Source of the DNA: Escherichia virus TH47
Sequence record: MT446416.1
DNA length: 64,000 nucleotides
Direction: 5' to 3' (one strand)
Both the position numbers and the translations under genes were made by a program. Positions 1,979 to 22,858 of the stretch are shown here, one piece after another. Every line of letters starts with the position of its first letter. Position 1 is the stretch's first letter. The notes under the pieces were generated by a model that saw only the letters and a program-made list of their open reading frames with translations, was not told where the DNA came from and searched no databases.

Positions 1979-2557
1979 TTATAAAAATGTTAAATCTTCA
2001 GTACTTAATTGTGATAATTTGCCATCATATTCAACTTCAACATATATTGTTTGGTCTGAAATTATAACTACTCTTCTAATAACACCATAAACCACGACAT
2101 TTTTGTTGTAATGGAATTTAACCTCTGCACCAATAAGTTTTTTTGATAGGAAGTTACGTACCTGTTTGATCTGGTCGGCAAGTATAGAATTGATGGTTTT
2201 TTTCATAATATATAAATCATACAATGATTTTTTAATATCATCATGCATATTATTAACTTTTGGATCAGTTTCATCAAGTGCATTGTGAACATTCACTTGC
2301 ATTTGAACTTCAACTTTAAGTTCTTCTTGTTCTTCAGGAATAACTTTTTCAGGTTCTGGTGTAACCTGATCACGTTTATCATTAATCATGAAGTTGATAT
2401 TACGTTCACCAAGTACTAATAAAGTAACAATGGTGAGTACTGGGGTCAGTACTAGACTAAGTAGTACATAGCCGATAACACTACGGTTGTAATTGTAGGC
2501 AAGCATACCTGCAATGACTACACCTAGTACACTAATAACTGCTGCGATTGTTAACAT
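1979..2557 (-). CDS. membrane protein, two N-terminal TM helices
   Basis: N-terminal 50 aa strongly hydrophobic (MLTIAAVISVLGVVIAGMLAY ... VLLSLVLTPVLTIVTLLVLG). Confidence 0.55.
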   Translation of the reverse strand: MLTIAAVISVLGVVIAGMLAYNYNRSVIGYVLLSLVLTPVLTIVTLLVLGERNINFMINDKRDQVTPEPEKVIPEEQEELKVEVQMQVNVHNALDETDPKVNNMHDDIKKSLYDLYIMKKTINSILADQIKQVRNFLSKKLIGAEVKFHYNKNVVVYGVIRRVVIISDQTIYVEVEYDGKLSQLSTEDLTFL

Positions 2558-2870
2558 ATTCTACTCCTTTGTATATAAATTTACCAATATCTTCGATGTA
2601 TAAACAGATTCCACCGCGTTCGTTTAACACAAGCCAATCACCAAAACCGCAACGAATGTTTTGTATATTAAATTCTTCAATACCATCCGGTGAATACGCA
2701 ATGAATGGACATATTTCATCTGATATACCATTTACATAGTTATTACATATTAAATCAAATGTATGTGAACTATAAGAATTATCAGTACTGAAAATGTGCA
2801 TTAATGAATTAGATAGAATTACTATTGTTTTTTCCCACATTTTTAAAAAATCGTTATTCACAACAACCAC
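2532..2870 (-). CDS. hypothetical protein
   Basis: Minus-strand ORF in compact gene series. Confidence 0.5.
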   Translation of the reverse strand: MVVVNNDFLKMWEKTIVILSNSLMHIFSTDNSYSSHTFDLICNNYVNGISDEICPFIAYSPDGIEEFNIQNIRCGFGDWLVLNERGGICLYIEDIGKFIYKGVEYVNNRSSY

Positions 2871-2918
2871 TCCATGTCAGTGTCGTAATGAAATTATATC
2901 ACCGAATCAAGATATGTC

Positions 2919-3224
2919 TCATGAGATTCGCATTTCATCCAGATATAAACTACATGCTTCGAAATTGTTGTCAGCACTTAAACCTAAATCAACCATCAGA
3001 CCACAATGCGTTCCACAGAATTTCTTTATGTATAGTTTCTTATTGTTTGTACCTAAGTCATAAACATATTCATTTTCGAAAATAGTTTTTAAATCATTAC
3101 AAATACTTTTTACTATCTTCATTACATCATTATGATACTCATATGGTATTCCATCTAGTTCATTAATGATAATAGCAAAACCATTGTCATAGAGCTTTAA
3201 TTTATTGAATGTATATGTATCCAT
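2919..3224 (-). CDS. hypothetical protein
   Basis: Minus-strand ORF. Confidence 0.5.
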   Translation of the reverse strand: MDTYTFNKLKLYDNGFAIIINELDGIPYEYHNDVMKIVKSICNDLKTIFENEYVYDLGTNNKKLYIKKFCGTHCGLMVDLGLSADNNFEACSLYLDEMRIS

Positions 3225-9824: not shown

Positions 9825-9831
9825 TATATTT

Positions 9832-10116: not shown

Positions 10117-10125
10117 AACAGTTCC

Positions 10126-10854: not shown

Positions 10855-10879
10855 TTCACATTCCTTGTGTTTATGATTT

Positions 10880-11812: not shown

Positions 11813-11852
11813 TCCTTGTGTTAGTTATTGTTCCTCATCCAATATTATATCA

Positions 11853-12309: not shown

Positions 12310-12596
12310 AAAAATGTTACCTCGTTAGATGAGTAGTTACGATATATTTGTGAATTATGTTCCACACCATGAATTGTTATATGCCCGTTGTAGAAAAAAG
12401 TAATATCTACAACTTTGAGTTCTTTACGTTTTTTAGTACTGAAATATCTACCCACTAACGCAGCATATATATAATCCCTGTACTCTTGAGTAATGAATTT
12501 ATACATATTATGATTTGCACTACACTTTTCATCATAAGTATTAGTATATTCTTTCATCAGTAGAGCATATGTTTTTTGTATTAATATGATATTCAT
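12306..12596 (-). CDS. hypothetical protein, possible divergent family-B member
   Basis: Same size and position as the adjacent family-B array; N-terminus MNIILIQKTY. Confidence 0.5.
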   Translation of the reverse strand: MNIILIQKTYALLMKEYTNTYDEKCSANHNMYKFITQEYRDYIYAALVGRYFSTKKRKELKVVDITFFYNGHITIHGVEHNSQIYRNYSSNEVTFL

Positions 12597-12979
12597 CTGT
12601 AGTTTAATATTGAAATGGGAAGACTATATATATGTGCGTAAAGTTTATCAACTCTTTCCATATTCACTTTTAAAGTACTTCCAATACGACTGATGCTATC
12701 TATACGATAAAGCACGTCATTCAGCATCATTACGGTATCGGTGTAATCTTCACTAAGAGATTCAATGTAGATATCTTCAAGTTTCACATCCATGCGTGGT
12801 ATATCTAAATCCCTCAATAAACGCAGTGTTTGCACGATCAGTTCAGCTTTAGTAATGAATACGCTCACATGCCAGACAATAAATGCACTCAATGTCAGGT
12901 CGCCATGATTTATCGAAATCTTTGTGCTGTTCTTCAGTGTATTCCGCATCATCATTGATAGGAAAGAAATCCCCAGCAC
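12593..12979 (-). CDS. hypothetical protein (start probably internal, near 12793)
   Basis: ORF overlaps 12849..13049 by 131 nt; internal ATG (MDVKLEDIY) would remove the overlap. Confidence 0.4.
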   Translation of the reverse strand: MLGISFLSMMMRNTLKNSTKISINHGDLTLSAFIVWHVSVFITKAELIVQTLRLLRDLDIPRMDVKLEDIYIESLSEDYTDTVMMLNDVLYRIDSISRIGSTLKVNMERVDKLYAHIYSLPISILNYR

Positions 12980-13049
12980 CAGAGGCCCAGTCTGAATCTA
13001 AACGGAAACGAGCTAATTGAGTACTGTTGCAATATGGACATTTATTCAA
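12849..13049 (-). CDS. small zinc-ribbon protein
   Basis: CPYC ... CIYCLAC Cys pairs. Confidence 0.45.
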   Translation of the reverse strand: MNKCPYCNSTQLARFRLDSDWASGAGDFFPINDDAEYTEEQHKDFDKSWRPDIECIYCLACERIHY

Positions 13050-13326
13050 AATTTATTCCTTCTAACTGATATACGTTTAATGAAAATGACCCACTATTAT
13101 TATCGCATCTGAAACACAGTGTTAAAGAACCATTATAACTCACGACATCCGTACATATACATTTTTCACCATTGGATATGATAGATTTTCCTATATATAA
13201 ATCTCTTACTATAGTACGGTAATGTTGCCATAAAAAATAATACACACTTTCATAGTACTCATCTTTTACATATGACAAGTATAAGAATTTATAAAATACT
13301 TGTATTTCCTTTAAGTTGTTTTTCAT
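13042..13326 (-). CDS. family-B paralog
   Basis: N-terminus MKNNLKEIQVFYKFLY. Confidence 0.6.
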   Translation of the reverse strand: MKNNLKEIQVFYKFLYLSYVKDEYYESVYYFLWQHYRTIVRDLYIGKSIISNGEKCICTDVVSYNGSLTLCFRCDNNSGSFSLNVYQLEGINFE

Positions 13327-13600
13327 TCTCCAACTCCAGTAAATTTACACCAATCCAATCAACATCACTATCAGTACTTAATTCCAATCGTAGCTTACCG
13401 CTATGACTAACAATATCGCGGAATTTGTATATTTTATTATCACGAACTATACACAAATCATGGTAATATTCATGTAATTCATCCAAAAACTTTATCCATA
13501 CCGAACGATAGATTTCACCGTAGAGATATTCTCCAGCATCAACCGTAGCGTATTGGATATACAAAAATTTGTATGTGAATTGTATATCATTAATATTCAT
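13289..13600 (-). CDS. family-B paralog
   Basis: N-terminus MNINDIQFTYKFLY. Confidence 0.6.
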   Translation of the reverse strand: MNINDIQFTYKFLYIQYATVDAGEYLYGEIYRSVWIKFLDELHEYYHDLCIVRDNKIYKFRDIVSHSGKLRLELSTDSDVDWIGVNLLELENEKQLKGNTSIL

Positions 13601-13610
13601 ATGTCAACTC

Positions 13611-13922
13611 TTATAGGTCCGTTAACTTCAAAACTTTGATCTCCATAAATTCCCTATCAGTTTTTTCAAGAAATTCTACATGGATAATACCTTGATAAGA
13701 TTTTACACCTGAATATTCAAATATGTCATCTCCATCAGTGTAAGTACTGTAATTCTTTTTTATATATTCAGCAATAGAATCTAAGTAATCATAGTAATTA
13801 TTAATAAATGGTGATTCTTTTGATTCGACATGTTCACCAATCTTCCCACTAAAAAGATACATGTCATACAAACCATATATATTTTTATACGTGAATTGAA
13901 CATCATTCAAATTTAATTTCAA
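13611..13922 (-). CDS. family-B paralog
   Basis: N-terminus MKLNLNDVQFTYKNIY. Confidence 0.6.
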   Translation of the reverse strand: MKLNLNDVQFTYKNIYGLYDMYLFSGKIGEHVESKESPFINNYYDYLDSIAEYIKKNYSTYTDGDDIFEYSGVKSYQGIIHVEFLEKTDREFMEIKVLKLTDL

Positions 13923-14179
13923 GGGAATATCTCCAGAGGAACACTCGTAAATCCAAAATCAGTGTAGAACTGTACCTCTACTTTACCATCGAGCTTAATG
14001 ATTATATCTGAAAATTCTGCATGATCGTTGTTGATAATTACAGTACTGAATTTTTCTTTAATCCTCTCACGCACAGTATTAATCATTTCAATACATGTAT
14101 TTTCTAAAAATATACTATTATTTTTATCTGCTAGGTCACGAATGCACTTGAATGTTAATTGGAAATCTTTATAATTCAT
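13919..14179 (-). CDS. family-B paralog
   Basis: N-terminus MNYKDFQLTFKCI. Confidence 0.6.
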   Translation of the reverse strand: MNYKDFQLTFKCIRDLADKNNSIFLENTCIEMINTVRERIKEKFSTVIINNDHAEFSDIIIKLDGKVEVQFYTDFGFTSVPLEIFP

Positions 14180-14445
14180 ATATTCACCAAATCAACAGAG
14201 AATAAGTCGTTATCAAATTTATATGAAAGTACTAATCTACCATCAAAACTATCGACACTAAGTATCTTTCGTTTTTTCCCATTAATGAAAATTTCAGTAT
14301 CAATAAAATACTCACGTAATTCTTCTAGGTAATTTGACCATAATTTATGAGTAAACGCATATTTATTAATTGTGTTAGTACTTCTGTGATTATGGTGTAA
14401 TTTAAATAATTCCATATAAGTGAATTGTATATGTTTGTAATTCAT
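14176..14445 (-). CDS. family-B paralog
   Basis: N-terminus MNYKHIQFTYMELF; SD AAGGGGAAA upstream. Confidence 0.6.
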   Translation of the reverse strand: MNYKHIQFTYMELFKLHHNHRSTNTINKYAFTHKLWSNYLEELREYFIDTEIFINGKKRKILSVDSFDGRLVLSYKFDNDLFSVDLVNI

Positions 14446-14455
14446 ATTTCCCCTT

Positions 14456-14484
14456 ACAAAAATAGCCCGAACTTATGTCGGGCT
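14456..14484 (-). terminator. intrinsic terminator
   Basis: Perfect 7-bp stem AGCCCGA/TCGGGCT with 7-nt loop, followed on the minus strand by TTTTTGT; 8 nt after stop of 14492..15154. Confidence 0.55.
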
Positions 14485-14491
14485 ATATGTG

Positions 14492-15154
14492 TTATTCATC
14501 GTCATCATCATCGTCGTCGAGATCTAGGTAAATGCCATCATCACCATCATCGAAGTACTCAACCACTACACCAGGAATGTTCAGTGCTGTGAACATCGCA
14601 TCATATTTTTCATCAGATGGGATAAGAACAAACTCATCAATACTTTGAATTTCAGGCATACGATCTTCAGGAATACCCATTTGCAACAAGGATTGGATGA
14701 TTTTTTCCTTGTATTCTAGGAACTTCTCTTCTGATTCGAAATCCATAATAAGTTGTGCTACATAACCATCTTCGTTACCAAATGCGATTGACATTTGTGC
14801 ATCAGTACCGACATATGACCATGTACGCTTGCCAGTATTTTTCTCAATGAAGTTCTGAATTTCAAGAACGATTTCATGACGAGAACTATTGGCAATGTTG
14901 TTAAGGTTAGCAACACCAGCAATAATTTCTGAACTATCATTGGATTCTTCGAATGTACCATAGTCACCTAATACATATTGAACACCATCACAATGTAATG
15001 CATATGCATAATCCAAATCAGCAAGTGAATCACACTTACCACGGATTGGGCGTAGGGAAAGCCCTAGGCGAAGATAACGAAAGTATGTATTAGTATTTGT
15101 ATTTGTCAACGTAATGCTCCTTAACAATATAAAAGTAGTTGCTGTTGTTGTCAA
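14492..15154 (-). CDS. hypothetical protein with poly-acidic C-terminal tail
   Basis: C-terminus YLDLDDDDDDDE; annotated N-terminus is low-complexity and overlaps upstream gene, so true start is probably downstream. Confidence 0.5.
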   Translation of the reverse strand: MTTTATTFILLRSITLTNTNTNTYFRYLRLGLSLRPIRGKCDSLADLDYAYALHCDGVQYVLGDYGTFEESNDSSEIIAGVANLNNIANSSRHEIVLEIQNFIEKNTGKRTWSYVGTDAQMSIAFGNEDGYVAQLIMDFESEEKFLEYKEKIIQSLLQMGIPEDRMPEIQSIDEFVLIPSDEKYDAMFTALNIPGVVVEYFDDGDDGIYLDLDDDDDDDE

Positions 15155-15398
15155 AAAAGATGACTAATCCTTTGTAGACATTTACACCAATCTTGATTTG
15201 GCATATTTTATTCGATTTACAAGCCTCAGTCAATAACATCTTGTGCTCTTTACTGAAAGTGTGGAATAGTGGTTTTACATGCCACATCTCCACACCATCT
15301 AGTACTGGAAAATGTTCACTGAATTTGATCATTGATTCTTGTAAAAAATAACCTGTTAGATTCGAATCATCAGACATGTAAGTTCGCCAGGAAGTCAA
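15090..15398 (-). CDS. hypothetical protein
   Basis: Minus-strand ORF. Confidence 0.5.
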   Translation of the reverse strand: MTSWRTYMSDDSNLTGYFLQESMIKFSEHFPVLDGVEMWHVKPLFHTFSKEHKMLLTEACKSNKICQIKIGVNVYKGLVIFFDNNSNYFYIVKEHYVDKYKY

Positions 15399-15663
15399 TT
15401 ACTTCTTCATGTGTTAACTTATCACTACGCTCTAGAACATTGATGATGAATGGTGTTTGACTATATAATTCAGCCAGAAACGCAACTTCATCAGATGTAT
15501 AAGAATATCCCATAGGAACAACTTGTGCAGTCCAGTTTCCTAAAGTTTTGTTTGCAATGATTGCAACCACCGTATTACCTTTGAATTCAACATGGATTGA
15601 ACGGAAACCCGAATCCTCATTCTGATCCCAAAGTACTGGGTTAGTTTTAAACAGTACTGACAT
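15370..15663 (-). CDS. hypothetical protein
   Basis: Minus-strand ORF. Confidence 0.5.
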   Translation of the reverse strand: MSVLFKTNPVLWDQNEDSGFRSIHVEFKGNTVVAIIANKTLGNWTAQVVPMGYSYTSDEVAFLAELYSQTPFIINVLERSDKLTHEEVIDFLANLHV

Positions 15664-15665
15664 AG

Positions 15666-16199
15666 TTATTTCCTCATGTATTTTATTACATCTTCAAATA
15701 GTTTAGTTTTCAGTGCATCATCATTACCAGGTAGAAAAGTACTGAAGCTATTAAAATCTTCATTCTTGGCAAACTCACGCATCTGTGTGGAACTGTAGCG
15801 ACTTACATTTCGGTCAATTCCAGCTTGAACTGCCTTGATTGAACAAAAATTATATAACTTCCCATTGTACGTGTCAAGCGTTTTTTGGAATGGTTCAAGT
15901 CTGTCTGAACCACATATGAAAAGAACATCTAAGTACTTTCCATCCAGTTCTCTCATTATATCAAACAGATTATCTTCTGTATAGATATTTTCTTGTACAG
16001 ATGGGTAAAATCCTTCTGTATAGTACATTTTCAGTTCAGGAGGTAATGGGTTTTTGACGGCATCAGTACTGGTACTAAGGAATATTTTCAAATCAGCATT
16101 GTACTGTTCTTGTAGTGCTTGGGCTTTTTCAAACACTAAACCATGTCCATTGTGGACTGGGTTACATCTCATGAATGTCACTACGCATGTTTCTTTCAT
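15666..16199 (-). CDS. HxGH-motif nucleotidyltransferase (NMN/NaMN adenylyltransferase-like)
   Basis: N-terminal CNPVHNGH (HxGH signature of cytidylyltransferase-like fold) and C-terminal SRYSSTQMR resembling the ISSTxIR motif. Confidence 0.6.
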   Translation of the reverse strand: MKETCVVTFMRCNPVHNGHGLVFEKAQALQEQYNADLKIFLSTSTDAVKNPLPPELKMYYTEGFYPSVQENIYTEDNLFDIMRELDGKYLDVLFICGSDRLEPFQKTLDTYNGKLYNFCSIKAVQAGIDRNVSRYSSTQMREFAKNEDFNSFSTFLPGNDDALKTKLFEDVIKYMRK

Positions 16200-16720
16200 A
16201 TGTTCTTCATCACCTGACCAAGAGATTTAAGATAGTTGATTTTAGCTGGAGTCAAATACTTATCCAGTACTATTAAACAACTAGGGAATGGAGCACTGTC
16301 CGTCTTTTTATCTGGTTCTTCAGGGATACCGAATTTTAAGCGACCTTTTATAAAACAAATACAGTCGCATTCTTTTGATGCATAGTTCTGAAACGCAACC
16401 GTATCGGTACGTGAAGGTACAAGTATCAGTACTGTAGCACCTTTGTTATATGCATCAACTGCCTTAGATAACCACGTTTTCAAATCACTGTACGGTGGGT
16501 TGAGCCACACGATATTGTTTCCCCAGTCCTGTTCAAGTGAATTGTCTTCTGGTGTAAAGAACTTATCACACAATGCTGTTTCTTTAACACATGCTGCATC
16601 TAGTGTAAATTCCCAGAGTTCATCCAAATCTTCAAAGAAATCCTTTGGAGTAGTCCAGTTATCTTTTCCAGTACTGAAATGTACTGATTGTTTTTTCTTC
16701 GAAGCATCCTTCTTCGACAT
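16196..16720 (-). CDS. DNA N6-adenine methyltransferase, phage Dam family
   Basis: FTLDAAC and WLNPPYS motifs in the order typical of phage N-6-adenine-methyltransferases; 174 aa. Confidence 0.8.
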   Translation of the reverse strand: MSKKDASKKKQSVHFSTGKDNWTTPKDFFEDLDELWEFTLDAACVKETALCDKFFTPEDNSLEQDWGNNIVWLNPPYSDLKTWLSKAVDAYNKGATVLILVPSRTDTVAFQNYASKECDCICFIKGRLKFGIPEEPDKKTDSAPFPSCLIVLDKYLTPAKINYLKSLGQVMKNI

Positions 16721-16736
16721 ACATAATTTCCTTTGA

Positions 16737-17282
16737 TTATAGACAGTTAAGTACTATGTCATCAAAAGTACTACTGTCAATGTTGTATTCATATAAAAAT
16801 TTAAAATGTGATCCATAACGCATCATCAGATTAAACTCTTCTTCAGTATTAAATTTGTAATCATGAAGAGTTTCAAGGGTACATGTTAAACCTAAAAACT
16901 CAATAATTTCTGATGTTACATCATTTCCTGAATTGAAGTATTTAACCCAAACACATTTTCCTTGTGGGTTGAATTTTCTATATTCTCCTTCTAGTTCTCC
17001 ATTGACGATATGTGCTTTCGCACTGATTAGATTATTACTATAACGCTCTTCGTAGTAGTTCCCATAACGAGCTTTAAGAATTGTAGGCTTCTTGGTTGGG
17101 AATAACTTAATGGAAGTTAATTCAAAACCGCACTGCAACTCTTTGATGTACGAAATACATCCCTTTTCTTTAATCACAACAAAACCAGTAAAATTCTCCT
17201 GGTCTTGGTTCTGATTGTCTGAATCAACAAATTCTAGTGTTTTATAAGTGACGCTTTTAGATTTTTTAATAAATGACATCAT
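16737..17282 (-). CDS. hypothetical protein with MORN/YwqK-like repeats
   Basis: Repeats like GEYRKFNPQGKCVWVKYFNSGN; track start at 17369 is a TTG that is actually the promoter -35 box, so start trimmed to ATG at 17280-17282 with AGGA upstream. Confidence 0.55.
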   Translation of the reverse strand: MMSFIKKSKSVTYKTLEFVDSDNQNQDQENFTGFVVIKEKGCISYIKELQCGFELTSIKLFPTKKPTILKARYGNYYEERYSNNLISAKAHIVNGELEGEYRKFNPQGKCVWVKYFNSGNDVTSEIIEFLGLTCTLETLHDYKFNTEEEFNLMMRYGSHFKFLYEYNIDSSTFDDIVLNCL

Positions 17283-17340
17283 TATTCCTATGGAAACATC
17301 AATGACTGTCCATGGCGTTGACTTCATCAACACCAGTCGA

Positions 17341-17369
17341 ATTATACACGCTTCGCATGTATAATTCAA
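17341..17369 (-). promoter_or_regulatory. sigma70-like promoter TTGAAT-17-TATAAT
   Basis: Minus strand: AGTACT-ttcg-TTGAAT-N17-TATAAT, then 5' UTR hairpin GGTGTTGA/TCAACGCC at 17314-17334. Confidence 0.55.
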
Positions 17370-17399
17370 CGAAAGTACTATGATTTGTTTTAATTAATA

Positions 17400-17900
17400 T
17401 TGACGGGGTTTGCTTGAGCATATTTCATCCCCCCGCAGGGGAAAGAACAAAAAAGTTTGACGCTGGTGGCCTTCACATAGTTCATATCACGAATTCTCTT
17501 ACGAGGCGAAAGCGGGTTGCTCTGTTTCTCTCTATCGCGGTTCTTGTAGCAACGGTCGTCGGTCTTAAACATCCCGACACATAATACAAATACCATATGA
17601 CCAGTACTTGTATTTGATTTCACGAATTTTGGACGCAACTATTTTGTATAAATTACGACCGCAAATTTCTCATGAAATCTCCCTTAGATAATTGGTAAGG
17701 TGCGATCCTTATATGTCTATCGAGGAACTCTCTTTATCCTATTGGAGTTCTTTATACAGCCGCATTGCCGTGAGTGGTTCAAACTATGCCATCATCTAAC
17801 GGGTTTCATTTGCTGTTCGTACTGAAAGGACTACTCATCTACCCTCTACTTTTCGAGTGGATTAGGCTTCAATCATTTCCATATGGAACCTTTCAGGATT
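17400..17900. other. ORF-free island of elevated GC, function unknown
   Basis: No ORF longer than about 25 codons on either strand except an implausible 82-aa one; GC visibly higher than flanks; contains CCCCCCGCAGGGG hairpin. Confidence 0.4.
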
Positions 17901-17932
17901 AAAAAAAGGTGACAACATATTCTGCTGTCACC
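17901..17932 (-). terminator. intrinsic terminator
   Basis: Perfect 7-bp stem GGTGACA/TGTCACC with 11-nt loop, then T7 on the minus strand; 30 nt after stop of 17963..18826. Confidence 0.65.
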
Positions 17933-17962
17933 TTACATTATATCATAAACTTATGGTATGTC

Positions 17963-18826
17963 TCAGTTGTATTCTGTTTTTTCAGTGAAATTCGTTAAGA
18001 TATCTGCACTTAAGCTTCTCATAACCTCAATCTTACTTGGCATGAACCTGTGCTTGTTTTTTACATACAACTCATCATCTTCAATGAAAGATGTGAACAT
18101 GAATACCATATCTTCACGTGGAATTGAGAGAATATTACAGTTTTCATTTTCAGTAACAGGGGAATCCCCGTAGTACTTAGAGAATGCAGTACTTTGACGA
18201 CCGATTATGATAGAATTTCGGATTAGAAAATTACTACAGTACTGAAAATCTTTGTAGTACTTGTCAAGGATATATGGCATTATCGCTTCTTTCACTTCTT
18301 CATATCCATTTGAACTATCAATTTCAGTACAATAATCTTCTCGGTCTTTTTTCCCTCGATGATTATCAAACTCGTACTCAAAGAATAAATTTTTATTTGA
18401 TGAATCTGAATCATTTAAACCAACTGATCCACTATAGTATGAATTTCGTGAATTTCTATCCTTCATTCGATCATCCGGGCATGATGCATACATAGAAATG
18501 TCATGTGTTGACGTACCGATATAAATTTTCTTAGTAATGTGATTGTACGCGATGTAATCATAATCTTGTACTCCAGTGAGCATTAACTGGAACATCAATT
18601 CATCAGGAACATCAATTAACGGGTACTCAAACTTCGAATATCTACTACGACAGAAATTCTTTTCAAATGCTCGGTGTGCGATGAAATCTTTTAGATTTGT
18701 AATAGATTCATGCTCATGTGTATTACTGGTGCGTACATTGACATTAGTAGACGAGCAATACCCTTCAGATTCTTCTGCGTAGACATAAAAACCCTTACTG
18801 TAGTCAACGATTAGATAAAGTTTCAT
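17963..18826 (-). CDS. hypothetical protein, 287 aa, with internal family-A-like motif
   Basis: Contains VPDELMFQLMLTG; SD TGGAGA upstream. Confidence 0.6.
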   Translation of the reverse strand: MKLYLIVDYSKGFYVYAEESEGYCSSTNVNVRTSNTHEHESITNLKDFIAHRAFEKNFCRSRYSKFEYPLIDVPDELMFQLMLTGVQDYDYIAYNHITKKIYIGTSTHDISMYASCPDDRMKDRNSRNSYYSGSVGLNDSDSSNKNLFFEYEFDNHRGKKDREDYCTEIDSSNGYEEVKEAIMPYILDKYYKDFQYCSNFLIRNSIIIGRQSTAFSKYYGDSPVTENENCNILSIPREDMVFMFTSFIEDDELYVKNKHRFMPSKIEVMRSLSADILTNFTEKTEYN

Positions 18827-18837
18827 ATATCTCCAGA

Positions 18838-18870
18838 CAAAAAAAAGGACGAGATATTATATCCAGTCCT
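18838..18870 (-). terminator. weak putative terminator
   Basis: Short stem GGAC/GTCC with long loop followed by T8 on the minus strand, after stop of 18879..19184. Confidence 0.35.
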
Positions 18871-18878
18871 TTGGTTTA

Positions 18879-19184
18879 TTAGTGGCTTGCCCAGCAGTAA
18901 ACAGGACGTAGATTTTCCATTGGGTTTACTTCAGGCTTCAGTACTGTAACACGAACTTCATACGGAGTACCATCTGCATGATGGAACGTTTCGTAATGAA
19001 TACTCTCAATGAAGGTTTCATATTCTTCTTGAGAACGTGAACGAACTGATGGGGAATATTTCTTTTTGGTATCTGATTTTAGCGTAACACTTACTAGTTC
19101 TGTTTCTTCACCTTCTTCAAGTTTATTGAAATCGAACTCTGGTACACCTTCAAACATATCAAATTTCATTCCGTTGTCTTCCAT
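18879..19184 (-). CDS. hypothetical protein
   Basis: Minus-strand ORF. Confidence 0.5.
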   Translation of the reverse strand: MEDNGMKFDMFEGVPEFDFNKLEEGEETELVSVTLKSDTKKKYSPSVRSRSQEEYETFIESIHYETFHHADGTPYEVRVTVLKPEVNPMENLRPVYCWASH

Positions 19185-19235
19185 TTTAAATTCCTTTTTA
19201 TATAATGTTAGTTAGATAGTTTTTAATAAATCAGA

Positions 19236-19622
19236 TTAGATTACGTCATACGGTAGAGTACCGTGACGGAATTTATCAAGTTGTGCAAGAACTTCTTTAC
19301 GTTCGACAATCTCTGGCACATCTTCTTGCAGTTGGTCACATACTTCAACGATGAAATCCCAATCGCTCTCACAACTCACACGTACTGCTTCAATTGTTTT
19401 CCAATCAGCACTAATTTCACCTTCAGGATTTACATACGAAGGCCATACCTTTCCATAGTCTTGTACTGATTTGTCGTTAAGAACACGAATAGCATTGAAA
19501 ATCTGTCCAGTACTGAAGTGTTTAGTATTCTTCATGTCTTCTAAGCAACATAGCTTAGGTTCACCCTGGACTTCAATCAGAAGTACACCACCAATCGCTT
19601 TTAGAACAGAACTTGTATTCAT
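19236..19622 (-). CDS. hypothetical protein
   Basis: Minus-strand ORF. Confidence 0.5.
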   Translation of the reverse strand: MNTSSVLKAIGGVLLIEVQGEPKLCCLEDMKNTKHFSTGQIFNAIRVLNDKSVQDYGKVWPSYVNPEGEISADWKTIEAVRVSCESDWDFIVEVCDQLQEDVPEIVERKEVLAQLDKFRHGTLPYDVI

Positions 19623-19695
19623 CTATATCTCCATTTATCAAAAAAAAAGATGTGAACATTATATCACAAGGAATTGTTATGTCCACAATATTTTA

Positions 19696-19989
19696 TCAAA
19701 TAGTCAAACTTTCGTGCCAGTTATTGAAATCGTTAATAGCCAGCATAAACATATTCTCATCATTAAATTCTAGAATATGTTCATTGTATAAGTAGCTAAT
19801 GTACTTATTACTACAGTGTTTGCTATTCATAATTAGCATTTCAACTGCACGTTCATACGAACATGGGCTGAGATACAATTTTGTTCCATCAGGATGCTCA
19901 ATCTCCACTGCACCAGGTGGAATAAAACGTTCACCAGTATAAGGGATATACGGTTCTGTTTTGAAAATAAGTTTGAATTTAGTATCCAT
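19696..19989 (-). CDS. hypothetical protein
   Basis: Minus-strand ORF. Confidence 0.5.
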   Translation of the reverse strand: MDTKFKLIFKTEPYIPYTGERFIPPGAVEIEHPDGTKLYLSPCSYERAVEMLIMNSKHCSNKYISYLYNEHILEFNDENMFMLAINDFNNWHESLTI

Positions 19990-20005
19990 ACCAAATCCTC
20001 CATAA

Positions 20006-20863
20006 TTACATTGTTTCTTTTATGTTGCACAACATAGTATTAACTATGTTCATCTTCCCGCCTAACTTGAAGTAATATTCCAATTTATTAATAATATTAC
20101 TTTTTAATATCTCAAATAGTTGATATTCATTTGTTTCGAAACCAAGTTCGAATTGAAAAGTATATAAATTGTTGAATAGATGTACTAAAGATGCATCCGG
20201 TGAATGCATTGTAAATGTGTAGTTGGCACGATAACCAGTACTAATCACTACTTCTGATATATCACCTTTCATGTATATGTCAATATTGTACATCATTGGT
20301 CTGCCTGTTGCAATATCTTTCATGCGAAAGAATGCAGTGCTACGATAAACAACACCTTCTTCTGTAACTTTTTCTTGAATAGTGATATTTGAAACGTCAC
20401 TCTCTTTGAATTTGGACTCGAATGAATGTGTGTAGCTTGTTTTTTCATTATCCGCGTGCATAGTACATGTGTACTTTCCAAAATCATCTCTAGATGTATA
20501 TGATTTATCACTGGCGGTTTTATAGAACGAAACCCCATTGATGTGTTCTTCTTTGTACATCATAGTGTCATTGGATTTGTAGTATGAACAATTAGGTGTT
20601 GAAAGAGATTCAAAAATGTTCACATCATGACAGTAAGAAATAGAAGAATCGCTATACAGTACTACATCACGAATTGCAACTTCTTTTGAAGTACCTTTTT
20701 TGACAGAAATTTGAAAGTCATTGCATGGGAAGATTCTATATCCATCGTATGTATCTGATGTACTGATGCCAAATGGTGTTGGGGAATTTAGAAATTCGTT
20801 GATATGTTCAAGTACTGAATACTTTTTGAAATTGCGAAAGTCAGTGCTATCTAACATATACAA
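20006..20863 (-). CDS. hypothetical protein, 285 aa
   Basis: Minus-strand ORF. Confidence 0.55.
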   Translation of the reverse strand: MYMLDSTDFRNFKKYSVLEHINEFLNSPTPFGISTSDTYDGYRIFPCNDFQISVKKGTSKEVAIRDVVLYSDSSISYCHDVNIFESLSTPNCSYYKSNDTMMYKEEHINGVSFYKTASDKSYTSRDDFGKYTCTMHADNEKTSYTHSFESKFKESDVSNITIQEKVTEEGVVYRSTAFFRMKDIATGRPMMYNIDIYMKGDISEVVISTGYRANYTFTMHSPDASLVHLFNNLYTFQFELGFETNEYQLFEILKSNIINKLEYYFKLGGKMNIVNTMLCNIKETM

Positions 20864-20880
20864 TCTCCATAAATTTGGAC

Positions 20881-20908
20881 AAAAAATTAGTCGAGAATAA
20901 ATCTCGAC
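20881..20908 (-). terminator. intrinsic terminator
   Basis: 7-bp stem GTCGAGA/TCTCGAC with 5-nt loop, then TAATTTTTT on the minus strand. Confidence 0.5.
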
Positions 20909-21018
20909 TTGTGTTTTACTTTACCATTCTTCATTGCTTTCTTACGGTCCACATGTGTTTGAGGTTTATTAAACTCATTCATATGCTTTTGTACAAAGTT
21001 GTTTACATTTTTAGCCAT
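20887..21018 (-). CDS. small Lys-rich protein, 43 aa (below ORF-track cutoff)
   Basis: ATG at 21016-21018 preceded by GGAG; translates to MAKNVNNFVQKHMNEFNKPQTHVDRKKAMKNGKVKHKSRFILD; the overlapping plus-strand ORF 20875..21072 is probably its shadow. Confidence 0.4.
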   Translation of the reverse strand: MAKNVNNFVQKHMNEFNKPQTHVDRKKAMKNGKVKHKSRFILD

Positions 21019-21020
21019 AC

Positions 21021-21494
21021 TTACTCCAAATCGGGATCTTTAACTGTTAGGCTTTCAATATCACTTGCGTAAAGAACTACATTAGTTTGTGTCTCTGATA
21101 CTTTAAAATCATGATAACTATCTTTCACTTTAAAATTATCCAAAATAAACCCTTTACTACAACACATCATGATTTTATCATCTTTGATAGTGTATGTATT
21201 CTTTTTCTTACGCACTTCAGATTGTGGGGTAATATTATCATTATTACGAATAACACAATCAATGTACTCGTCATTTGTACTCATAGGCATACCCATAATA
21301 AACGAATTGCTAGTACTGATTGTTAGTATAAAAACATTAGTATTTGGATTGTGAAAGAAGTCGTGCATAGTTTTACTGCATAAAAACAAACACTGAATTA
21401 TGTCCTTTACATTGAACATTATATCATGAACTTTGAATGCGTCCAACTCTAAAATGTCATCTATCTTTCCATTCTCAACAGTTTTAATCTCCAT
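21021..21494 (-). CDS. hypothetical protein
   Basis: Minus-strand ORF. Confidence 0.5.
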   Translation of the reverse strand: MEIKTVENGKIDDILELDAFKVHDIMFNVKDIIQCLFLCSKTMHDFFHNPNTNVFILTISTSNSFIMGMPMSTNDEYIDCVIRNNDNITPQSEVRKKKNTYTIKDDKIMMCCSKGFILDNFKVKDSYHDFKVSETQTNVVLYASDIESLTVKDPDLE

Positions 21495-21536
21495 GATCTA
21501 TCCTTGATCTTCAAAGGCACTCCATGTGCACATATA

Positions 21537-22037
21537 TTAGGTCACAGCTTTGTATTTCTCCATTGCTTCGGTGATATTCAATACTGCTTGCGGTACGTCA
21601 CTTTTGTTGTATGCAGTGGTTAGTTTTTCCATGTTATTGAGAAGACTAAGAAACAATGGAAGTACTTCTGCATTGTCACTGAAGTTGCAATCATTGACAG
21701 TACTCAATTGGAATAACTCACCCGCATCAACATTGAGTGTGTTGTATTCTTTAACAATGTTTTCTTCAGTATTGAAGATGTAGAATACAGTCCCCATGTG
21801 GTGTAAGTATACACCAGTTTCATTCTGAATATGACATGGGGTGATTACAATTGCTGTGTTATCAATATTATTTACTATTGTCAAACGCAGACTATGTAAC
21901 CCAAAGATTACAGTACAATCCTTTGTACTGTGTTGGATCTGGTCACTAGTAAAGGAAGACCCACTATATATTTTAGATCCATTTAGTATTTCTTTGATAA
22001 TTTTAAATGAATACTTCATCGAATTAGTTAAAAGCAT
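21537..22037 (-). CDS. family-A paralog
   Basis: Motif GELFQLSTV. Confidence 0.65.
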   Translation of the reverse strand: MLLTNSMKYSFKIIKEILNGSKIYSGSSFTSDQIQHSTKDCTVIFGLHSLRLTIVNNIDNTAIVITPCHIQNETGVYLHHMGTVFYIFNTEENIVKEYNTLNVDAGELFQLSTVNDCNFSDNAEVLPLFLSLLNNMEKLTTAYNKSDVPQAVLNITEAMEKYKAVT

Positions 22038-22437
22038 GAACTTTACCTTTAAGTAAATTAATTAATGTTCGCATAGATTCAGTACTGACAGTACCAAAAT
22101 CAACACCTAAGCACTCGTATTGAAAGAACTCAATAGAATCAATTGAGTCCAAAGGAATATCAACAACCTGATTCCCTATACCAGACATAGTAACATTGCT
22201 TTTATTAATCGTCAAGAAGTTTTTTGTATAAGTGTTAAATTTTAGAGAAATCGCGTCGGGGTGCTTTGTAACAATGCAGTACTGGGAACCGTAGACATAT
22301 AGTACTTTACTTTCACTAAGATACGTTTTAAAAAAATGAATCCCATTGAAGTATTTCTCATTGGCGACCATCGCCGCGATTAGTTCATCTGTTGTTGTTA
22401 ACCTTGTTTCGTTCTTCGTTAAACTGTTGAAAAGCAT
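22024..22437 (-). CDS. family-A-like paralog (degenerate motif)
   Basis: Motif IEFFQYECL. Confidence 0.5.
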   Translation of the reverse strand: MLFNSLTKNETRLTTTDELIAAMVANEKYFNGIHFFKTYLSESKVLYVYGSQYCIVTKHPDAISLKFNTYTKNFLTINKSNVTMSGIGNQVVDIPLDSIDSIEFFQYECLGVDFGTVSTESMRTLINLLKGKVHAFN

Positions 22438-22858
22438 AGAATACTACCTTAACCATTTGTAGTGTTTCAGACATTACTTCTGATGAAAATTCAACATCAT
22501 TGAATTTCAGCATAGTGTTCTGTGTAAAGAATGTTGCTTCTAAGTCTTCCAGATTGAAAGGTTCATCAAACAAATTAGTACTGAACATGTCAGTCTTCTT
22601 CTTGTATGTGAACAGGAATTTGGAATTATAACGAAGAACTACTTCATCTTTATTGACCAAAATACGTGCAATGTTCTGACGTGTCAATGTGGTAATGTTT
22701 AAATTGAACACGTTCTTGCGTGTTTCAGTGATATCAACAAAATACCCATCTCCCTGATGGATATTACATCGTACATCCAACCCTTTCTGTACTGTATTGA
22801 ACAGTGCATCTTGAATAAAATAATTTGCTGTATCGATGTTTCCTAAAATGTCTAACAT
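22385..22858 (-). CDS. family-A-like paralog (degenerate motif)
   Basis: Motif EATFFTQNTML. Confidence 0.5.
   Translation of the reverse strand: MLDILGNIDTANYFIQDALFNTVQKGLDVRCNIHQGDGYFVDITETRKNVFNLNITTLTRQNIARILVNKDEVVLRYNSKFLFTYKKKTDMFSTNLFDEPFNLEDLEATFFTQNTMLKFNDVEFSSEVMSETLQMVKVVFYAFQQFNEERNKVNNNR

What the first reader, a model, noticed from the sequence alone, without database searches (positions are those of the whole stretch)
17400..17900. ORF-free island of about 500 bp with raised GC between a terminator and a promoter
Both strands are closed by stops in all frames; composition is noticeably more GC-rich than the flanking coding DNA; it contains a CCCCCCGCAGGGG hairpin. It is bracketed by a strong terminator (17901-17932) and the 17341-17369 promoter. 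Candidates are a structured noncoding RNA, a replication or packaging site, or a degraded intron or mobile-element remnant. I could not fit a tRNA cloverleaf by eye.
Basis: seen in the sequence. Interest (0 to 1): 0.5.

Follow-up and report, generated by a model that had tools for sequence, protein, structure and literature searches.

The report
New large structured jumbo-phage RNA
The ORF-free island is a gene for a roughly 500-base, intricately folded non-coding RNA with its own promoter; all RaK2-like giant phages examined carry copies (four or five in most), a few bacterial islands and integrated elements carry one, and no RNA family or paper searched here describes it.

Summary
Window 17286-17962 has no conserved ORF and is GC-richer than its flanks.

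It is an RNA gene on the minus strand (core 17900..17397) behind its own conserved promoter (17965..17937). Across 28 copies that are 62-98% identical, 82 proposed base pairs are 91.6% paired, against 39-48% when partners are slid. Thirty-nine pairs show compensatory changes, and two pseudoknots are among the best-supported helices. G-U versus A-C counts fix the strand.

Asteriusvirus genomes carry four dispersed copies and most related jumbo genera five; an Alcyoneusvirus copy is more divergent. The window holds one copy.

Complete, structure-preserving copies also lie in Enterobacterales chromosomes. One is in a 10-kb E. coli island that carries a candidate defence system. Others sit beside large serine recombinases or CI-type repressors. 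Only the RNA body is shared with the phages.

Nothing matches in Rfam 15, ARAGORN or the paper library. Function is unknown. My best guess is a stand-alone, trans-acting folded RNA that engages a partner through its invariant loops and two co-evolving 3' modules. Cis-leader, origin-primer and ribozyme readings are not excluded.

The parts
17937..17965 (-). Promoter of the RNA gene: -35-like TGAGAC (17965..17960), 17-nt spacer, extended -10 TGATATAAT (17945..17937).
   Evidence: One search lists it with a TG before the -10. A TGA(A/G)AC-N17-TGnTATAAT(GTA) element stands in front of most copies examined in phages, with looser -35 variants in the BF17 D copy, KP13-7 and the E. coli island. This class occurs only twice in the 64-kb window, against 14 canonical TTGACW-type sites on the same strand.
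17901..17934 (-). 5' leader hairpin (12-bp stem, 17934..17906) followed by a U-run. It has the shape of an intrinsic terminator and sits between the promoter and the RNA body.
   Evidence: It is present in the syntenic 'A' copies of all genera, with different stem sequences, but absent from the B, C and D copies. It probably ends the upstream gene's transcript and/or caps the 5' end of the RNA; this is inference.
17397..17900 (-). Body of the structured RNA, about 500 nt. It runs from just 5' of helix P1 to the second CGUCAA motif.
   Evidence: nhmmer with the family profile hits window 17901..17384 on the minus strand, E = 2.6e-128, and this is the only copy in the window. The similarity between the E. 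coli island copy and the phage copies begins and ends at exactly these borders.
17822..17896 (-). 5' domain: P1 (CUGAAAGG 17896..17889 with CCUUUCAG 17829..17822) encloses hairpins P1a (17888..17877) and P1b (17865..17839, with the conserved loop GAAAAGUA) in a three-way junction.
   Evidence: P1 is 96.7% paired and 4 of its 8 pairs show compensatory changes. The same three-way shape is the minimum-energy fold in 34 of 40 sequences even though the hairpin sequences are unrelated.
17756..17816 (-). P2 (ACAGC 17816..17812 with GCUGU 17760..17756), enclosing P2a (CCGU/ACGG plus a 2-pair extension) and the variable hairpin P2b with conserved loop CAUAGUUUGAA.
   Evidence: P2 is 100% paired with 4 of 5 pairs compensatory. 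P2a is 100% paired. The closing pair of P2b takes four forms: U-A, C-G, A-U and G-C.
17725..17750 (-). Hairpin P3 (GAACUC ... GAGUUC).
   Evidence: 96-100% paired, with 5 of 6 pairs compensatory and up to four pair types per position.
17635..17721 (-). Central region: the invariant GAUAGACAUAUA (17721..17710); P4 (GAUCGCA 17707..17701 with UGCGGUC 17663..17657), which encloses P4a (CCUUA/UAAGG, with the invariant UAAGGGAG) and the lineage-specific hairpin P4b (17678..17665); and P5 (17656..17635).
   Evidence: P4 and P5 are supported by hand inspection (for example GAUACUAC/GUAGUAUC in phage CBB) but score only 66-80% paired on the MAFFT alignment because of register errors. These are the weakest helices in the model.
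17583..17614 (-). Long hairpin P6 (13 bp in the window). Its loop (GUCAUAU, 17601..17595) forms pseudoknot PK2 with AUAUGAA (17487..17481).
   Evidence: A P6 hairpin of about 11-13 bp forms in 35 of 40 sequences from unrelated stem sequences. PK2 was found independently by RNAalifold and is 98.9% paired with 5 of 7 pairs compensatory.
17558..17578 (-). Hairpin P7 (GUCGG ... CCGAC, loop with conserved UAAGAC).
   Evidence: 87% paired, 3 of 5 pairs compensatory.
17488..17553 (-). Pseudoknotted core. PK-A (GUUGC 17553..17549 with GCAAC 17520..17516) crosses PK-B (CGCGA 17539..17535 with UCGUG 17492..17488) and PK-C (GAGAG 17532..17528 with CUUUC 17512..17508). Hairpin P8 (CUC-GUAA-GAG, 17505..17496) has a GNRA-type loop.
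   Evidence: All four helices are 100% paired, with 3, 4, 2 and 3 compensatory pairs respectively. Twelve further copies, including the bacterial ones, add new complementary variants; PK-B alone shows at least nine.
17400..17485 (-). 3' region with an internal direct repeat of about 29 nt: M1 (17485..17457, AUGAAC...CAGCGUCAA) and M2 (17428..17400, AUGAAA...CCCCGUCAA). P10 (GG/CC) closes M2.
   Evidence: M1 and M2 are 71% identical within one RNA against 65.5% between RNAs (0 of 5000 permutations reach this). The terminal motif changes in step at both sites: CGUCAG (27 sequences), CGUCAA (10), UGUCAG, CGACAA and CUUCAA. P9 is 92.5% paired, with one-sided (G-U) changes only.
17336..17370 (-). 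16-bp perfect hairpin (GUUGAAUUAUACAUGC-GAA-GCGUGUAUAAUUCGAC) downstream of the RNA.
   Evidence: The 121Q orthologue keeps the hairpin through a compensatory change (read by eye). At the same position the B and C copies have a canonical TTGACW-N17-TAGAAT promoter. Whether it acts as a promoter, an RNase III-type processing site, or both, is inference.
16737..17285 (-). Downstream gene (182 aa, phrog_16210, function unknown), followed by a Dam-type methyltransferase gene (16196..16720) and a gene with only a weak, sub-threshold cytidylyltransferase-like match (15666..16199). This is context, not part of the RNA.
   Evidence: The synteny is conserved in 121Q, GAP32, Kaldavass, XbC2, 7t3 and fENko-Kae01, whose records annotate the last gene as cytidylyltransferase, nucleotidyltransferase or ribonucleotide reductase.
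17963..18826 (-). Upstream gene (287 aa, phrog_15199, function unknown). This is context, not part of the RNA.

Best explanation
Shown. Window 17900..17397 (minus strand) is a stand-alone gene for a non-coding RNA of about 500 nt. It is one copy of a family carried by RaK2-like jumbo phages of Enterobacterales.

Its fold, as modelled here:
- A 5' three-way junction (P1, P1a, P1b).
- A second domain, P2-P3.
- A central P4-P7 region.
- A core in which helix PK-A crosses PK-B and PK-C.
- A second pseudoknot between the P6 loop and the strand just 3' of PK-B.
- A 3' region made of two similar modules of about 29 nt that each end in CGUCAR.

Peripheral hairpins vary freely in sequence and length, while 8-25-nt unpaired blocks are invariant. 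Each copy examined has a promoter of the same general type in front of it.

Inferred. The RNA is transcribed from that promoter by host-type RNA polymerase. It folds into a compact tertiary structure and acts in trans as the RNA itself, not as a leader for the next gene. It probably works by binding a partner, whether a protein, a nucleic acid or copies of itself. The likely contact surfaces are the invariant loops and the two co-evolving 3' modules. Several dispersed copies would then supply dosage or slightly different isoforms.

The copies in bacterial islands and integrated elements would either do the same job for those elements or mimic the phage RNA, as a decoy or a hijack. The biochemical function is not known.
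For: Conservation: 70 phage records hold the element, with 4 places per Asteriusvirus genome and 5 in most other genera. The window copy is syntenic across genera.

Structure: 82 pairs are 91.6% paired, against 39-48% when 3' partners are slid by 1-3 columns. Thirty-nine pairs and 258 cells carry changes on both sides, and 0 of 500 shuffles reach the observed percentage paired, covariation score or both-sided-change counts (an earlier 73-pair version is). RNAalifold recovers most helices independently, with 31 of its 64 pairs compensatory, and it proposed PK2. Variable hairpins keep their shape in 34-35 of 40 sequences. Twelve further copies add new complementary variants.

Strand: 154 G-U cells against 35 A-C cells.

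Not coding.

Own transcription unit: a promoter of the same type stands before every copy examined, and separate promoter-like sites follow the RNA.

Not a leader: the downstream genes differ between copies. In the Enterobacteriaceae MAG the next gene is convergent.

The unit of conservation is the RNA alone. Similarity between the E. coli island and phage copies starts at P1 and stops at the second CGUCAG. No flanking protein is shared.

Partner contact: M1 and M2 and their CGUCAR ends change in step within each RNA, and no complementary sequence lies within 600 nt.
Against: There are no expression data. Transcription, the 5' and 3' ends and stability are all inferred from sequence.

No intrinsic terminator follows the window copy, so it could be co-transcribed with the downstream operon and act in cis or need processing.

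In the A copies a terminator-shaped hairpin lies between the promoter and the RNA body. That would be expected to abort many transcripts.

The C and D copies and the E. coli island copy carry a terminator-shaped insertion before P9. This fits a riboswitch-like or two-isoform design as well as it fits a trans-acting RNA.

Helices P4, P4a and P5 are poorly supported on the unrefined alignment.

Part of the covariation signal is two-state (two or three paralogue classes), so the number of independent events is smaller than the cell counts suggest.

The in-step change of M1 and M2 could come from short-tract gene conversion and need not reflect a shared partner.
Confidence: 0.6

Rival explanations
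1. Cis-acting leader. The folded RNA is the 5' part of the downstream operon's transcript and controls it. It could act as a very large riboswitch or attenuator, or as a processive antitermination element of the HK022 put or EAR kind that makes the polymerase read through the many terminators of a 350-kb, one-strand genome.
For: The RNA lies directly behind a strong promoter, and no U-run terminator separates the window copy from the next gene. Terminator-shaped hairpins lie just before the RNA (A copies) or inside it before P9 (C and D copies and the E. coli island copy). All copies are on the coding strand and dispersed 44-112 kb apart.
Against: Downstream genes are unrelated between copies. 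The B and C copies are followed by a fresh canonical promoter. In the Enterobacteriaceae MAG the next gene is convergent, so there is nothing downstream to regulate. What phage and island copies share is the RNA body only, without any expression platform or target gene. Known put or EAR elements are much smaller; this last point rests on my own knowledge and was not tested here.
Confidence: 0.13
2. Replication-origin element. Each copy marks an origin where the promoter-driven, folded transcript primes DNA synthesis, as ColE1 RNA II or the T4 oriF/oriG transcripts do. Alternatively the DNA itself is a site for replication or packaging proteins, and the bacterial elements copy it to be replicated or packaged by an infecting jumbo phage.
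For: There are four or five copies per genome, all in one orientation and spread around the genome. In Yersinia phage fHe-Yen9-04 they lie at 24.5, 93.3, 174.3, 260.4 and 334.7 kb of 354 kb. Each has a promoter. Single copies sit in small integrative elements that share nothing else with the phage, which is the pattern expected of a satellite borrowing a cis-acting site. The two short repeats that change in step could be protein-binding sites.
Against: Compensatory changes with many G-U pairs on one strand, together with two pseudoknots, point to a folded RNA and not a duplex DNA site. Known primer RNAs do not need so elaborate and conserved a tertiary core; this is my own knowledge. GC skew across the element is weak. 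The E. coli island shows no recognisable replication gene. One paralogue (L056) changed both repeats while another paralogue in the same genome (L005) did not, which is hard to explain with one shared DNA-binding protein.
Confidence: 0.12
3. Ribozyme or self-assembling RNA machine. The conserved pseudoknotted core is a catalytic centre (self-processing at the two CGUCAR sites, or action on another nucleic acid), or the RNA forms an RNA-only multimer as ROOL and GOLLD do.
For: The size, the two pseudoknots, the invariant unpaired blocks and the freely variable peripheral helices are the pattern seen in large ribozymes and ornate RNAs. The RNA travels between mobile elements without any protein gene. 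The two equivalent end motifs would suit two equivalent processing or contact sites.
Against: No model of a known ribozyme, or of ROOL, GOLLD, OLE, raiA or HEARO, gives a hit even at E up to 10. There is no test of catalysis or assembly. This reading overlaps with the best explanation, since it is also trans-acting and stand-alone, and differs only in the proposed biochemistry.
Confidence: 0.1
4. Not a functional element: decayed coding sequence, an intron remnant, or neutrally conserved spacer.
For: Several GenBank records annotate short hypothetical proteins across it.
Against: No frame is open in all copies and most indels break the frame. The structure is kept through compensatory changes in copies that are only 62-75% identical, including the bacterial ones. 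It is not inserted in a gene, and each copy has its own promoter.
Confidence: 0.01

Closest known systems
GOLLD and ROOL RNAs (large ornate RNAs of phages, prophages and bacteria; Rfam families; RNA-only multimers seen by cryo-EM, PMC12286853)
   Same: A several-hundred-nucleotide RNA with many helices and pseudoknots. It is associated with phages and integrated elements, has no protein gene attached, and its function is unknown. The pattern of invariant unpaired blocks plus variable peripheral hairpins is the same.
   Different: There is no sequence or structure match to their Rfam models, even at E up to 10. This RNA occurs as 4-5 diverged paralogues per genome. No copy examined sat beside a tRNA gene, and the window holds none. 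Its range is confined to RaK2-like jumbo phages and a few Enterobacterales elements. Multimerisation was not tested.
ncRNA001-004 of the related jumbo phage PA5oct (found by RNA-seq; ncRNA002 is 451 nt and about 5% of phage reads; PMC7318152)
   Same: A related jumbo phage lineage with four ORF-free, actively transcribed regions of 236-619 nt. This shows that phages of this wider group do make abundant long non-coding RNAs.
   Different: nhmmer with the family profile finds no similarity in the PA5oct region holding ncRNA001 and ncRNA002 (best E = 1.3). ncRNA003 and ncRNA004 were not fetched. A structural relationship was not tested.
Group I introns of T4-like phages
   Same: A phage RNA of a few hundred nucleotides with a pseudoknotted core and GNRA-type loops.
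   Different: It is not inserted in a gene and has its own promoter. It gives no Rfam Intron_gpI match. Its helix order (PK-A 5', PK-B 5', PK-C 5', PK-A 3', PK-C 3', P8, PK-B 3') leaves no room for a P4-P6 domain between the pseudoknot strands.
ColE1 RNA II and T4 origin transcripts (primer RNAs)
   Same: A promoter-driven, folded RNA of about 0.5 kb. T4 likewise has several origins per genome.
   Different: There is no evidence of R-loop formation or origin activity. The tertiary core is far more conserved than is known for primer RNAs (my own knowledge). The RNA is also present in an island that has no recognisable replication genes.
HK022 put RNA and the EAR element (cis-acting processive antiterminator RNAs)
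   Same: It lies directly downstream of an early-type promoter in a genome full of terminators.
   Different: It is roughly five to seven times larger than put or EAR elements (their sizes are from my own knowledge). Its downstream genes are unrelated between copies and in one case convergent. No Rfam match.

Membership tests
Any Rfam 15 family (4227 models, including RNase P, tmRNA, 6S, SRP, group I and II introns, GOLLD, ROOL, OLE, raiA, HEARO, and the hatchet, twister and pistol ribozymes) | A covariance-model score at or above the family's gathering threshold | tested here: not met
   There were 0 matches in the whole window at gathering thresholds. At E up to 10 on 17200-18050 there were only four chance-level hits of 14-18 bits against cut-offs of 43-56. 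No family matched the copies in seven other loci, while the SRP RNA and TPP riboswitch controls in those loci were found.
tRNA / tmRNA | Cloverleaf or tmRNA architecture detectable by ARAGORN | tested here: not met
   ARAGORN found 0 genes in the window.
Group I intron | Interrupts a host gene, with exons that join into an intact ORF or RNA | tested here: not met
   The upstream gene ends at its own stop codon at 17963. The element is preceded by a promoter and a terminator-like hairpin, and the downstream gene has its own start and ribosome-binding site.
Group I intron | P3-P7 pseudoknot with the P4-P6 domain between P3 5' and P7 5', and a guanosine-binding P7 | tested here: not met
   Only about 9 nt separate the 5' strands of PK-A and PK-B. 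No Intron_gpI match.
Structured non-coding RNA gene (generic) | Base pairs kept by compensatory substitutions, in excess of controls | tested here: met
   91.6% paired against 39-48% when slid; 39 pairs changed on both sides; 0 of 500 shuffles reach the observed percentage paired, covariation score or both-sided-change counts. RNAalifold agrees independently.
Structured non-coding RNA gene (generic) | No conserved reading frame | tested here: met
   The median stop-free run is at most 54 aa in every frame, and 85% of indels are not multiples of 3.
Structured non-coding RNA gene (generic) | Transcribed as a discrete RNA | not testable with these tools
   Only sequence evidence is available: a promoter of the same type before every copy examined. 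No RNA-seq for any phage of this clade was found.
Cis-regulatory leader (riboswitch, attenuator, antiterminator) | A constant relationship to a co-directional downstream gene or gene class | tested here: not met
   Downstream genes differ between copies A, B, D and the island. In locus L193 the next gene is convergent. Separate promoter-like sites follow the RNA.
GOLLD / ROOL class of ornate RNAs | Homology to the GOLLD or ROOL consensus | tested here: not met
   No cmscan hit.
GOLLD / ROOL class of ornate RNAs | Forms RNA-only homo-oligomers | not testable with these tools
   This needs native gels or cryo-EM.
Replication origin with primer RNA (ColE1 RNA II or T4 ori type) | Replication initiates at the site; the RNA stays hybridised to the template | not testable with these tools
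   Only indirect data exist: dispersed copies in one orientation, and weak GC skew.
PA5oct ncRNA001/ncRNA002 | Sequence similarity to the PA5oct ncRNA loci | tested here: not met
   nhmmer --max on PA5oct 7500-23500 gave a best E of 1.3.

The most novel reading that the evidence does not exclude
This is a new class of large, doubly pseudoknotted RNA that works as a protein-free molecular machine (a ribozyme or self-assembling particle) or as a high-affinity decoy at the centre of a three-way conflict. Jumbo phages would depend on four or five dispersed copies of it. Bacterial defence islands, prophages or satellites would have captured the bare RNA gene to mimic, poison or exploit that dependence. 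The two co-evolving 3' modules would be the paired contact or processing sites.
Probability: 0.3. Interest if true: 0.9.

Novelty: categorically new. Interest (0 to 1): 0.8.

Why it matters
Large, elaborately folded bacterial and phage RNAs are rare. Each such class found so far (RNase P, group I and II introns, OLE, GOLLD, ROOL, raiA) has either turned out to be a ribozyme or RNA machine or remains unexplained.

This one has strong covariation support. It has a defined phage clade with culturable E. coli members (121Q, PBECO4, phAPEC6 and others). It has an unusual copy-number pattern. Its bare RNA gene also occurs in a bacterial island that carries a candidate defence system and beside integrases and repressors of integrated elements.

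That makes its function directly testable. One can delete or mutate copies in an E. coli jumbo phage, express the island copy, and ask whether it helps or blocks infection.

It also corrects annotation. Several GenBank records place short 'hypothetical protein' genes on it.

Tried and rejected
1. Known RNA families: Rfam at gathering and at E up to 10, plus ARAGORN. Nothing found.

2. A second copy inside the window: blastn and nhmmer found none. The first 50 kb of phage Turkey3 has none either.

3. Homology to the RNA-seq-defined ncRNAs of phage PA5oct: none.

4. A wide family beyond jumbo phages: a pattern scan gave 120 or more hits, but nearly all were one unrelated, highly sampled protein-coding gene with third-position variation.

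5. An automatic covariation-weighted nested fold of the raw alignment was too noisy to use. I replaced it with hand-curated helices and checked them with the count of structure pairs and RNAalifold.

6. RNAalifold's proposed pairing of GAC (in GAUAGAC) with GUC (in the second CGUCAR): rejected. The Serratia chromosome copy has CGACAA but keeps GAUAGAC.

7. A Watson-Crick partner for the two CGUCAR motifs, either inside the RNA or within 600 nt: none found. An apparent 7-bp match to the 5' hairpin in phage Kaldavass is not conserved in other phages (read by eye).

8. A protein partner encoded next to the RNA in both phages and bacteria: no shared protein by tblastx or tblastn. Pfam and PHROGs say nothing useful about the phage neighbours.

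9. Plasmids: no copy.

10. Similarity to host rRNA or other host DNA: no E. coli hit except the two island copies.

11. Literature: seven full-text searches and several papers on these phages mention no such RNA.
Full report
**1. What is in the window**

The window is 99.7-100% identical across the element and its flanks to Escherichia phage Turkey3, in reverse orientation, and about 93% identical across the 751-bp query (97% across the RNA itself) to phage 121Q. Both are Asteriusvirus, a RaK2-like jumbo phage genus with a genome of about 350 kb.

Genes around the finding lie on the minus strand. Reading along that strand, the layout is:
- A 287-aa gene (18826..17963).
- A promoter-like site, TGAGAC-N17-TGATATAAT (17965..17937).
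- A 12-bp hairpin with a U-run (17934..17901).
- About 500 nt without a conserved ORF (17900..17397).
- A 16-bp perfect hairpin (17370..17336) that overlaps a TTGAAT-N17-TATAAT site.
- A 182-aa gene starting at 17285, then a Dam-type methyltransferase gene and a gene with only a weak cytidylyltransferase-like match.

GC is 0.40-0.465 in the gap, against 0.30-0.36 beside it. The longest ORFs in the gap are 82 and 56 aa, and they are not conserved.

**2. It is conserved and multi-copy**

blastn finds the 530-nt stretch in 70 phage records, all of them jumbo phages. They infect Escherichia, Salmonella, Klebsiella, Cronobacter, Serratia, Yersinia, Erwinia and Pectobacterium, plus two labelled Xanthomonas. 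Identity outside the genus is 66-76%. There are four places per Asteriusvirus genome and five in most other genera.

The window copy ('A') is syntenic everywhere: hypothetical gene, element, hypothetical gene, methyltransferase, then a cytidylyl- or nucleotidyltransferase-annotated gene.

The other Asteriusvirus copies lie outside the window:
- Copy B (121Q about 90.3 kb) lies directly after the phage's sigma-factor-like gene.
- Copy C lies at about 326.7 kb in 121Q.
- Copy D lies about 56 kb downstream of A (BF17 115.4-116.0 kb).

In Yersinia phage fHe-Yen9-04 the five copies lie at 24.5, 93.3, 174.3, 260.4 and 334.7 kb of 354 kb, all on one strand. An Alcyoneusvirus (RaK2-type) phage has a more divergent copy, again directly after its sigma-factor gene. 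The window itself holds one copy only.

**3. It is a folded RNA, read from the minus strand**

Alignments show invariant blocks of 8-25 nt separated by stretches that differ in sequence and length.

I curated helices by hand on 28 non-identical copies that fall into 10 clusters at 80% identity. I then tested them with the pair-counting tool:
- The final model has 82 pairs in 17 helices, and 91.6% of cells are paired.
- When every 3' partner is slid by 1-3 columns, only 39-48% are paired.
- Thirty-nine pairs and 258 cells have changes on both sides.
- None of 500 column shuffles reaches the observed percentage paired, covariation score or counts of both-sided changes. The count of additional pair types is not above the shuffles (the first version is).

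The best-supported helices are 96-100% paired, each with 2-5 compensatory pairs:
- P1, P2, P2a and P3.
- The core pseudoknot, in which PK-A crosses PK-B and PK-C.
- P8.
- PK2, which pairs the P6 hairpin loop with the strand just 3' of PK-B.

RNAalifold, run without my structure, recovered P1, P2, P2a, P3, P4a, P7, PK-B, PK-C, P8 and P9. It also proposed PK2, which I had only glimpsed earlier.

Hairpins that MAFFT cannot keep in register were checked by folding each sequence alone. The 5' three-way junction appears in 34 of 40 sequences. A P6 hairpin of about 11-13 bp appears in 35 of 40, built from unrelated stem sequences.

Twelve copies that were not used to build the model, including four from bacterial chromosomes, add further complementary variants. 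PK-B alone has at least nine.

G-U pairs outnumber A-C juxtapositions 154 to 35, so the folded strand is the minus strand, the same sense as the flanking genes.

P4, P4a and P5 remain weak (66-80% paired) and need a structure-aware alignment. Single-sequence folding energy is unremarkable (z = -1.6). Part of the covariation is two- or three-state between paralogue classes, so the number of independent substitution events is lower than the cell counts suggest.

**4. It looks like a gene of its own**

Most phage copies examined are preceded by TGA(A/G)AC-N17-TGnTATAAT, usually followed by GTA. A few copies have looser -35 variants: the BF17 D copy, the Alcyoneusvirus copy and the E. coli island copy.

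In the 64-kb window this promoter type occurs twice. The second instance (2921..2893) precedes an ordinary protein gene. Canonical TTGACW-N17-TAKART sites occur 14 times on the minus strand and never on the plus strand.

In the A-type copies the promoter is followed at once by the terminator-shaped hairpin. The B, C and D copies lack it. How many transcripts get past it is unknown.

Downstream, the B and C copies have a fresh canonical promoter, and the window copy has the long hairpin with a promoter-like sequence inside it. No clear intrinsic terminator ends the window copy. The 3' end is therefore inferred only from where conservation stops.

**5. An internal repeat that evolves in step**

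The 3' region contains two modules of about 29 nt:
- M1 (17485..17457) follows PK-B.
- M2 (17428..17400) follows P9.

Both begin AUGAA and end CGUCAR. Within one RNA they are 71% identical, against 65.5% between RNAs (0 of 5000 permutations reach this).

Their terminal motif is CGUCAG at both sites in 27 sequences and CGUCAA at both in 10. It is UGUCAG at both in one paralogue whose near-identical relatives have CGUCAG. It is CGACAA at both in the Serratia chromosome copy, and CUUCAA at both in the Alcyoneusvirus copy. One sequence (L079) breaks the pattern, with CGUCAU at site 1 and CGUCAG at site 2.

No complementary sequence exists in the RNA or within 600 nt. I cannot explain this. Possible readings are a shared partner (a dimeric protein, or two equivalent tertiary or intermolecular contacts), two equivalent processing sites, or short-tract conversion.

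**6. Copies in bacterial chromosomes**

Two of 5426 complete E. coli genomes carry a full-length copy (74% identity to the window copy).

In strain LR-29-1 it lies in a 10-kb insertion between ffs and ybaA. That insertion contains:
- A tyrosine integrase split by an IS3-family insertion sequence.
- Several unknown genes.
- The candidate defence system PDC-M45 (DuOB, DUF488 and mSLOG/DUF4326 proteins).
- A resolvase.

The island copy is 86% identical to the 174-kb copy of Serratia phage BF. Similarity to the phage starts at P1 and stops at the second CGUCAG. Neither flanking genes nor the leader are shared.

A second pattern scan of one genome per species found three more copies:
- In Citrobacter amalonaticus and a Serratia species, the RNA lies directly after a large serine recombinase gene at the edge of an inserted element. 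The Citrobacter element has a CI-type repressor nearby.
- In an Enterobacteriaceae MAG, the RNA is convergent with a CI-type repressor gene and lies next to the chromosomal thi operon.

All four bacterial copies keep the helices through new compensatory variants, so they are under selection as RNAs.

No plasmid carries the element. No neighbouring protein is common to phages and islands.

**7. What it most likely does**

Shown: a structured RNA family with two pseudoknots, a promoter of the same type before each copy examined, multiple dispersed copies, and horizontal movement of the bare RNA gene.

Inferred: it acts in trans as a folded RNA. Three observations favour this:
- The unit that is conserved and transferred is the RNA alone.
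- Its downstream neighbours are unrelated and in one case convergent.
- The pattern of invariant loops with free peripheral helices is that of RNAs with a tertiary fold and a binding or catalytic surface.

I put about 0.6 on 'stand-alone, trans-acting RNA'. Within that, I rank binding of a partner through the invariant loops and the M1/M2 modules ahead of catalysis or self-assembly.

The rivals are:
- A cis-acting leader or antiterminator (0.13).
- An origin or primer element (0.12). The dispersed one-strand copies and capture by small integrative elements fit this well, but the elaborate fold does not.
- A ribozyme or RNA-only assembly (0.10). This overlaps with the best explanation.
- A non-functional remnant (0.01).

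**8. Comparison with what is known, and novelty**

No Rfam 15 model matches any copy, while control RNAs in the same loci were found. ARAGORN finds nothing. It is not a group I intron by context, helix order or model score.

The nearest analogues by kind are GOLLD and ROOL, which are large, ornate, phage-associated RNAs of unknown function. There is no homology to them, and the copy-number pattern and host range differ.

The related phage PA5oct makes four long ncRNAs, two of them abundantly (PMC7318152), but the two loci tested here (ncRNA001 and ncRNA002) are not similar in sequence.

Seven literature searches found no description of this RNA. Genome papers on these phages do not mention it, and GenBank records leave it blank or cover it with short hypothetical ORFs.

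I therefore rate it as a new RNA family outside every family tested. Three caveats apply. The paper library is incomplete. Large candidate-motif catalogues (for example PMC10690425) could contain it unnamed. And its function, and hence how 'new' its mechanism is, remains open.

Noticed in passing
L192 7961-18305 (E. coli LR-29-1, NZ_AP027515.1, about 3473.2-3483.6 kb); also E. coli EEC_W5, NZ_CM130020.1, about 245 kb: A 10-kb island is inserted between ffs and ybaA. It holds a tyrosine integrase split by an IS3-family element, the candidate defence system PDC-M45 (DuOB + DUF488 + mSLOG/DUF4326), a small serine recombinase, and the RNA homologue in a 1.4-kb gene-free gap. It is present in only 2 of 5426 complete E. 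coli genomes.
   Followed up: partly
window 17457-17485 and 17400-17428 (minus strand): Two modules of about 29 nt inside the RNA are direct repeats that change in step within each RNA. Their CGUCAR ends take five different states, always the same at both sites, with one exception (L079). No complementary partner was found.
   Followed up: partly
window 2893-2921 (minus strand): This is the only other instance in the window of the TGAGAC-N17-TGATATAAT promoter type that precedes the RNA genes. It overlaps the stop codon of ORF 2919..3224 and precedes a 112-aa ORF (2532..2870). The promoter type is therefore not exclusive to the RNA genes.
   Followed up: partly
whole window: Canonical TTGACW-N16-18-TAKART promoter-like sites occur 14 times on the minus strand and never on the plus strand, matching the one-strand gene layout.
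   Followed up: no
Phage 121Q keeps the hairpin through a compensatory change. It could be an RNase III-type processing site as well as, or instead of, a promoter.
   Followed up: partly
L196 (phage BF17 copy D) and L192 (E. coli island copy), inside helix P8: Both carry an insertion in P8 that repeats the P5-to-CGUCCAAAAUUUGAGA segment found earlier in the same RNA. This suggests that modules are duplicated and shuffled within the family.
   Followed up: no
L050, L057, L196, L192 (C and D copies and the island copy), between M1 and P9: A terminator-shaped hairpin with an A-tract before it and a U-run after it is inserted inside the RNA in some paralogues, while the conserved P9/P10/M2 part follows it. 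This could give two RNA isoforms or be only a structural insertion.
   Followed up: no
L003 2948-3606; L083 1546-2146; L081 1954-2037: GenBank records of phages Kaldavass, 7t3 and XaC1, among others, annotate short hypothetical proteins (27-52 aa) on either strand across the RNA. These are probably spurious gene calls.
   Followed up: no
L030-type hits (for example L086-L096): The pattern GAAACCCGNTAG-N-CGGCAATG also hits, always with 57-nt spacing, a very widely sampled viral gene with third-codon-position variation. It is unrelated to the RNA and is a caution for motif scans.
   Followed up: yes
L047 2768-3733 (121Q gene 167) and L197 276-1172 (KP13-7 'rpoS'): In two genera one RNA copy sits directly downstream of the phage's sigma-factor-like gene. 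This is the only conserved gene-RNA adjacency apart from the window copy's own synteny.
   Followed up: no
L082 (Xanthomonas phage XbC2) versus L003 (Erwinia phage Kaldavass): The XbC2 copy and its flanks are almost identical to those of Erwinia and Cronobacter-type phages, which is odd for a phage reported on Xanthomonas.
   Followed up: no
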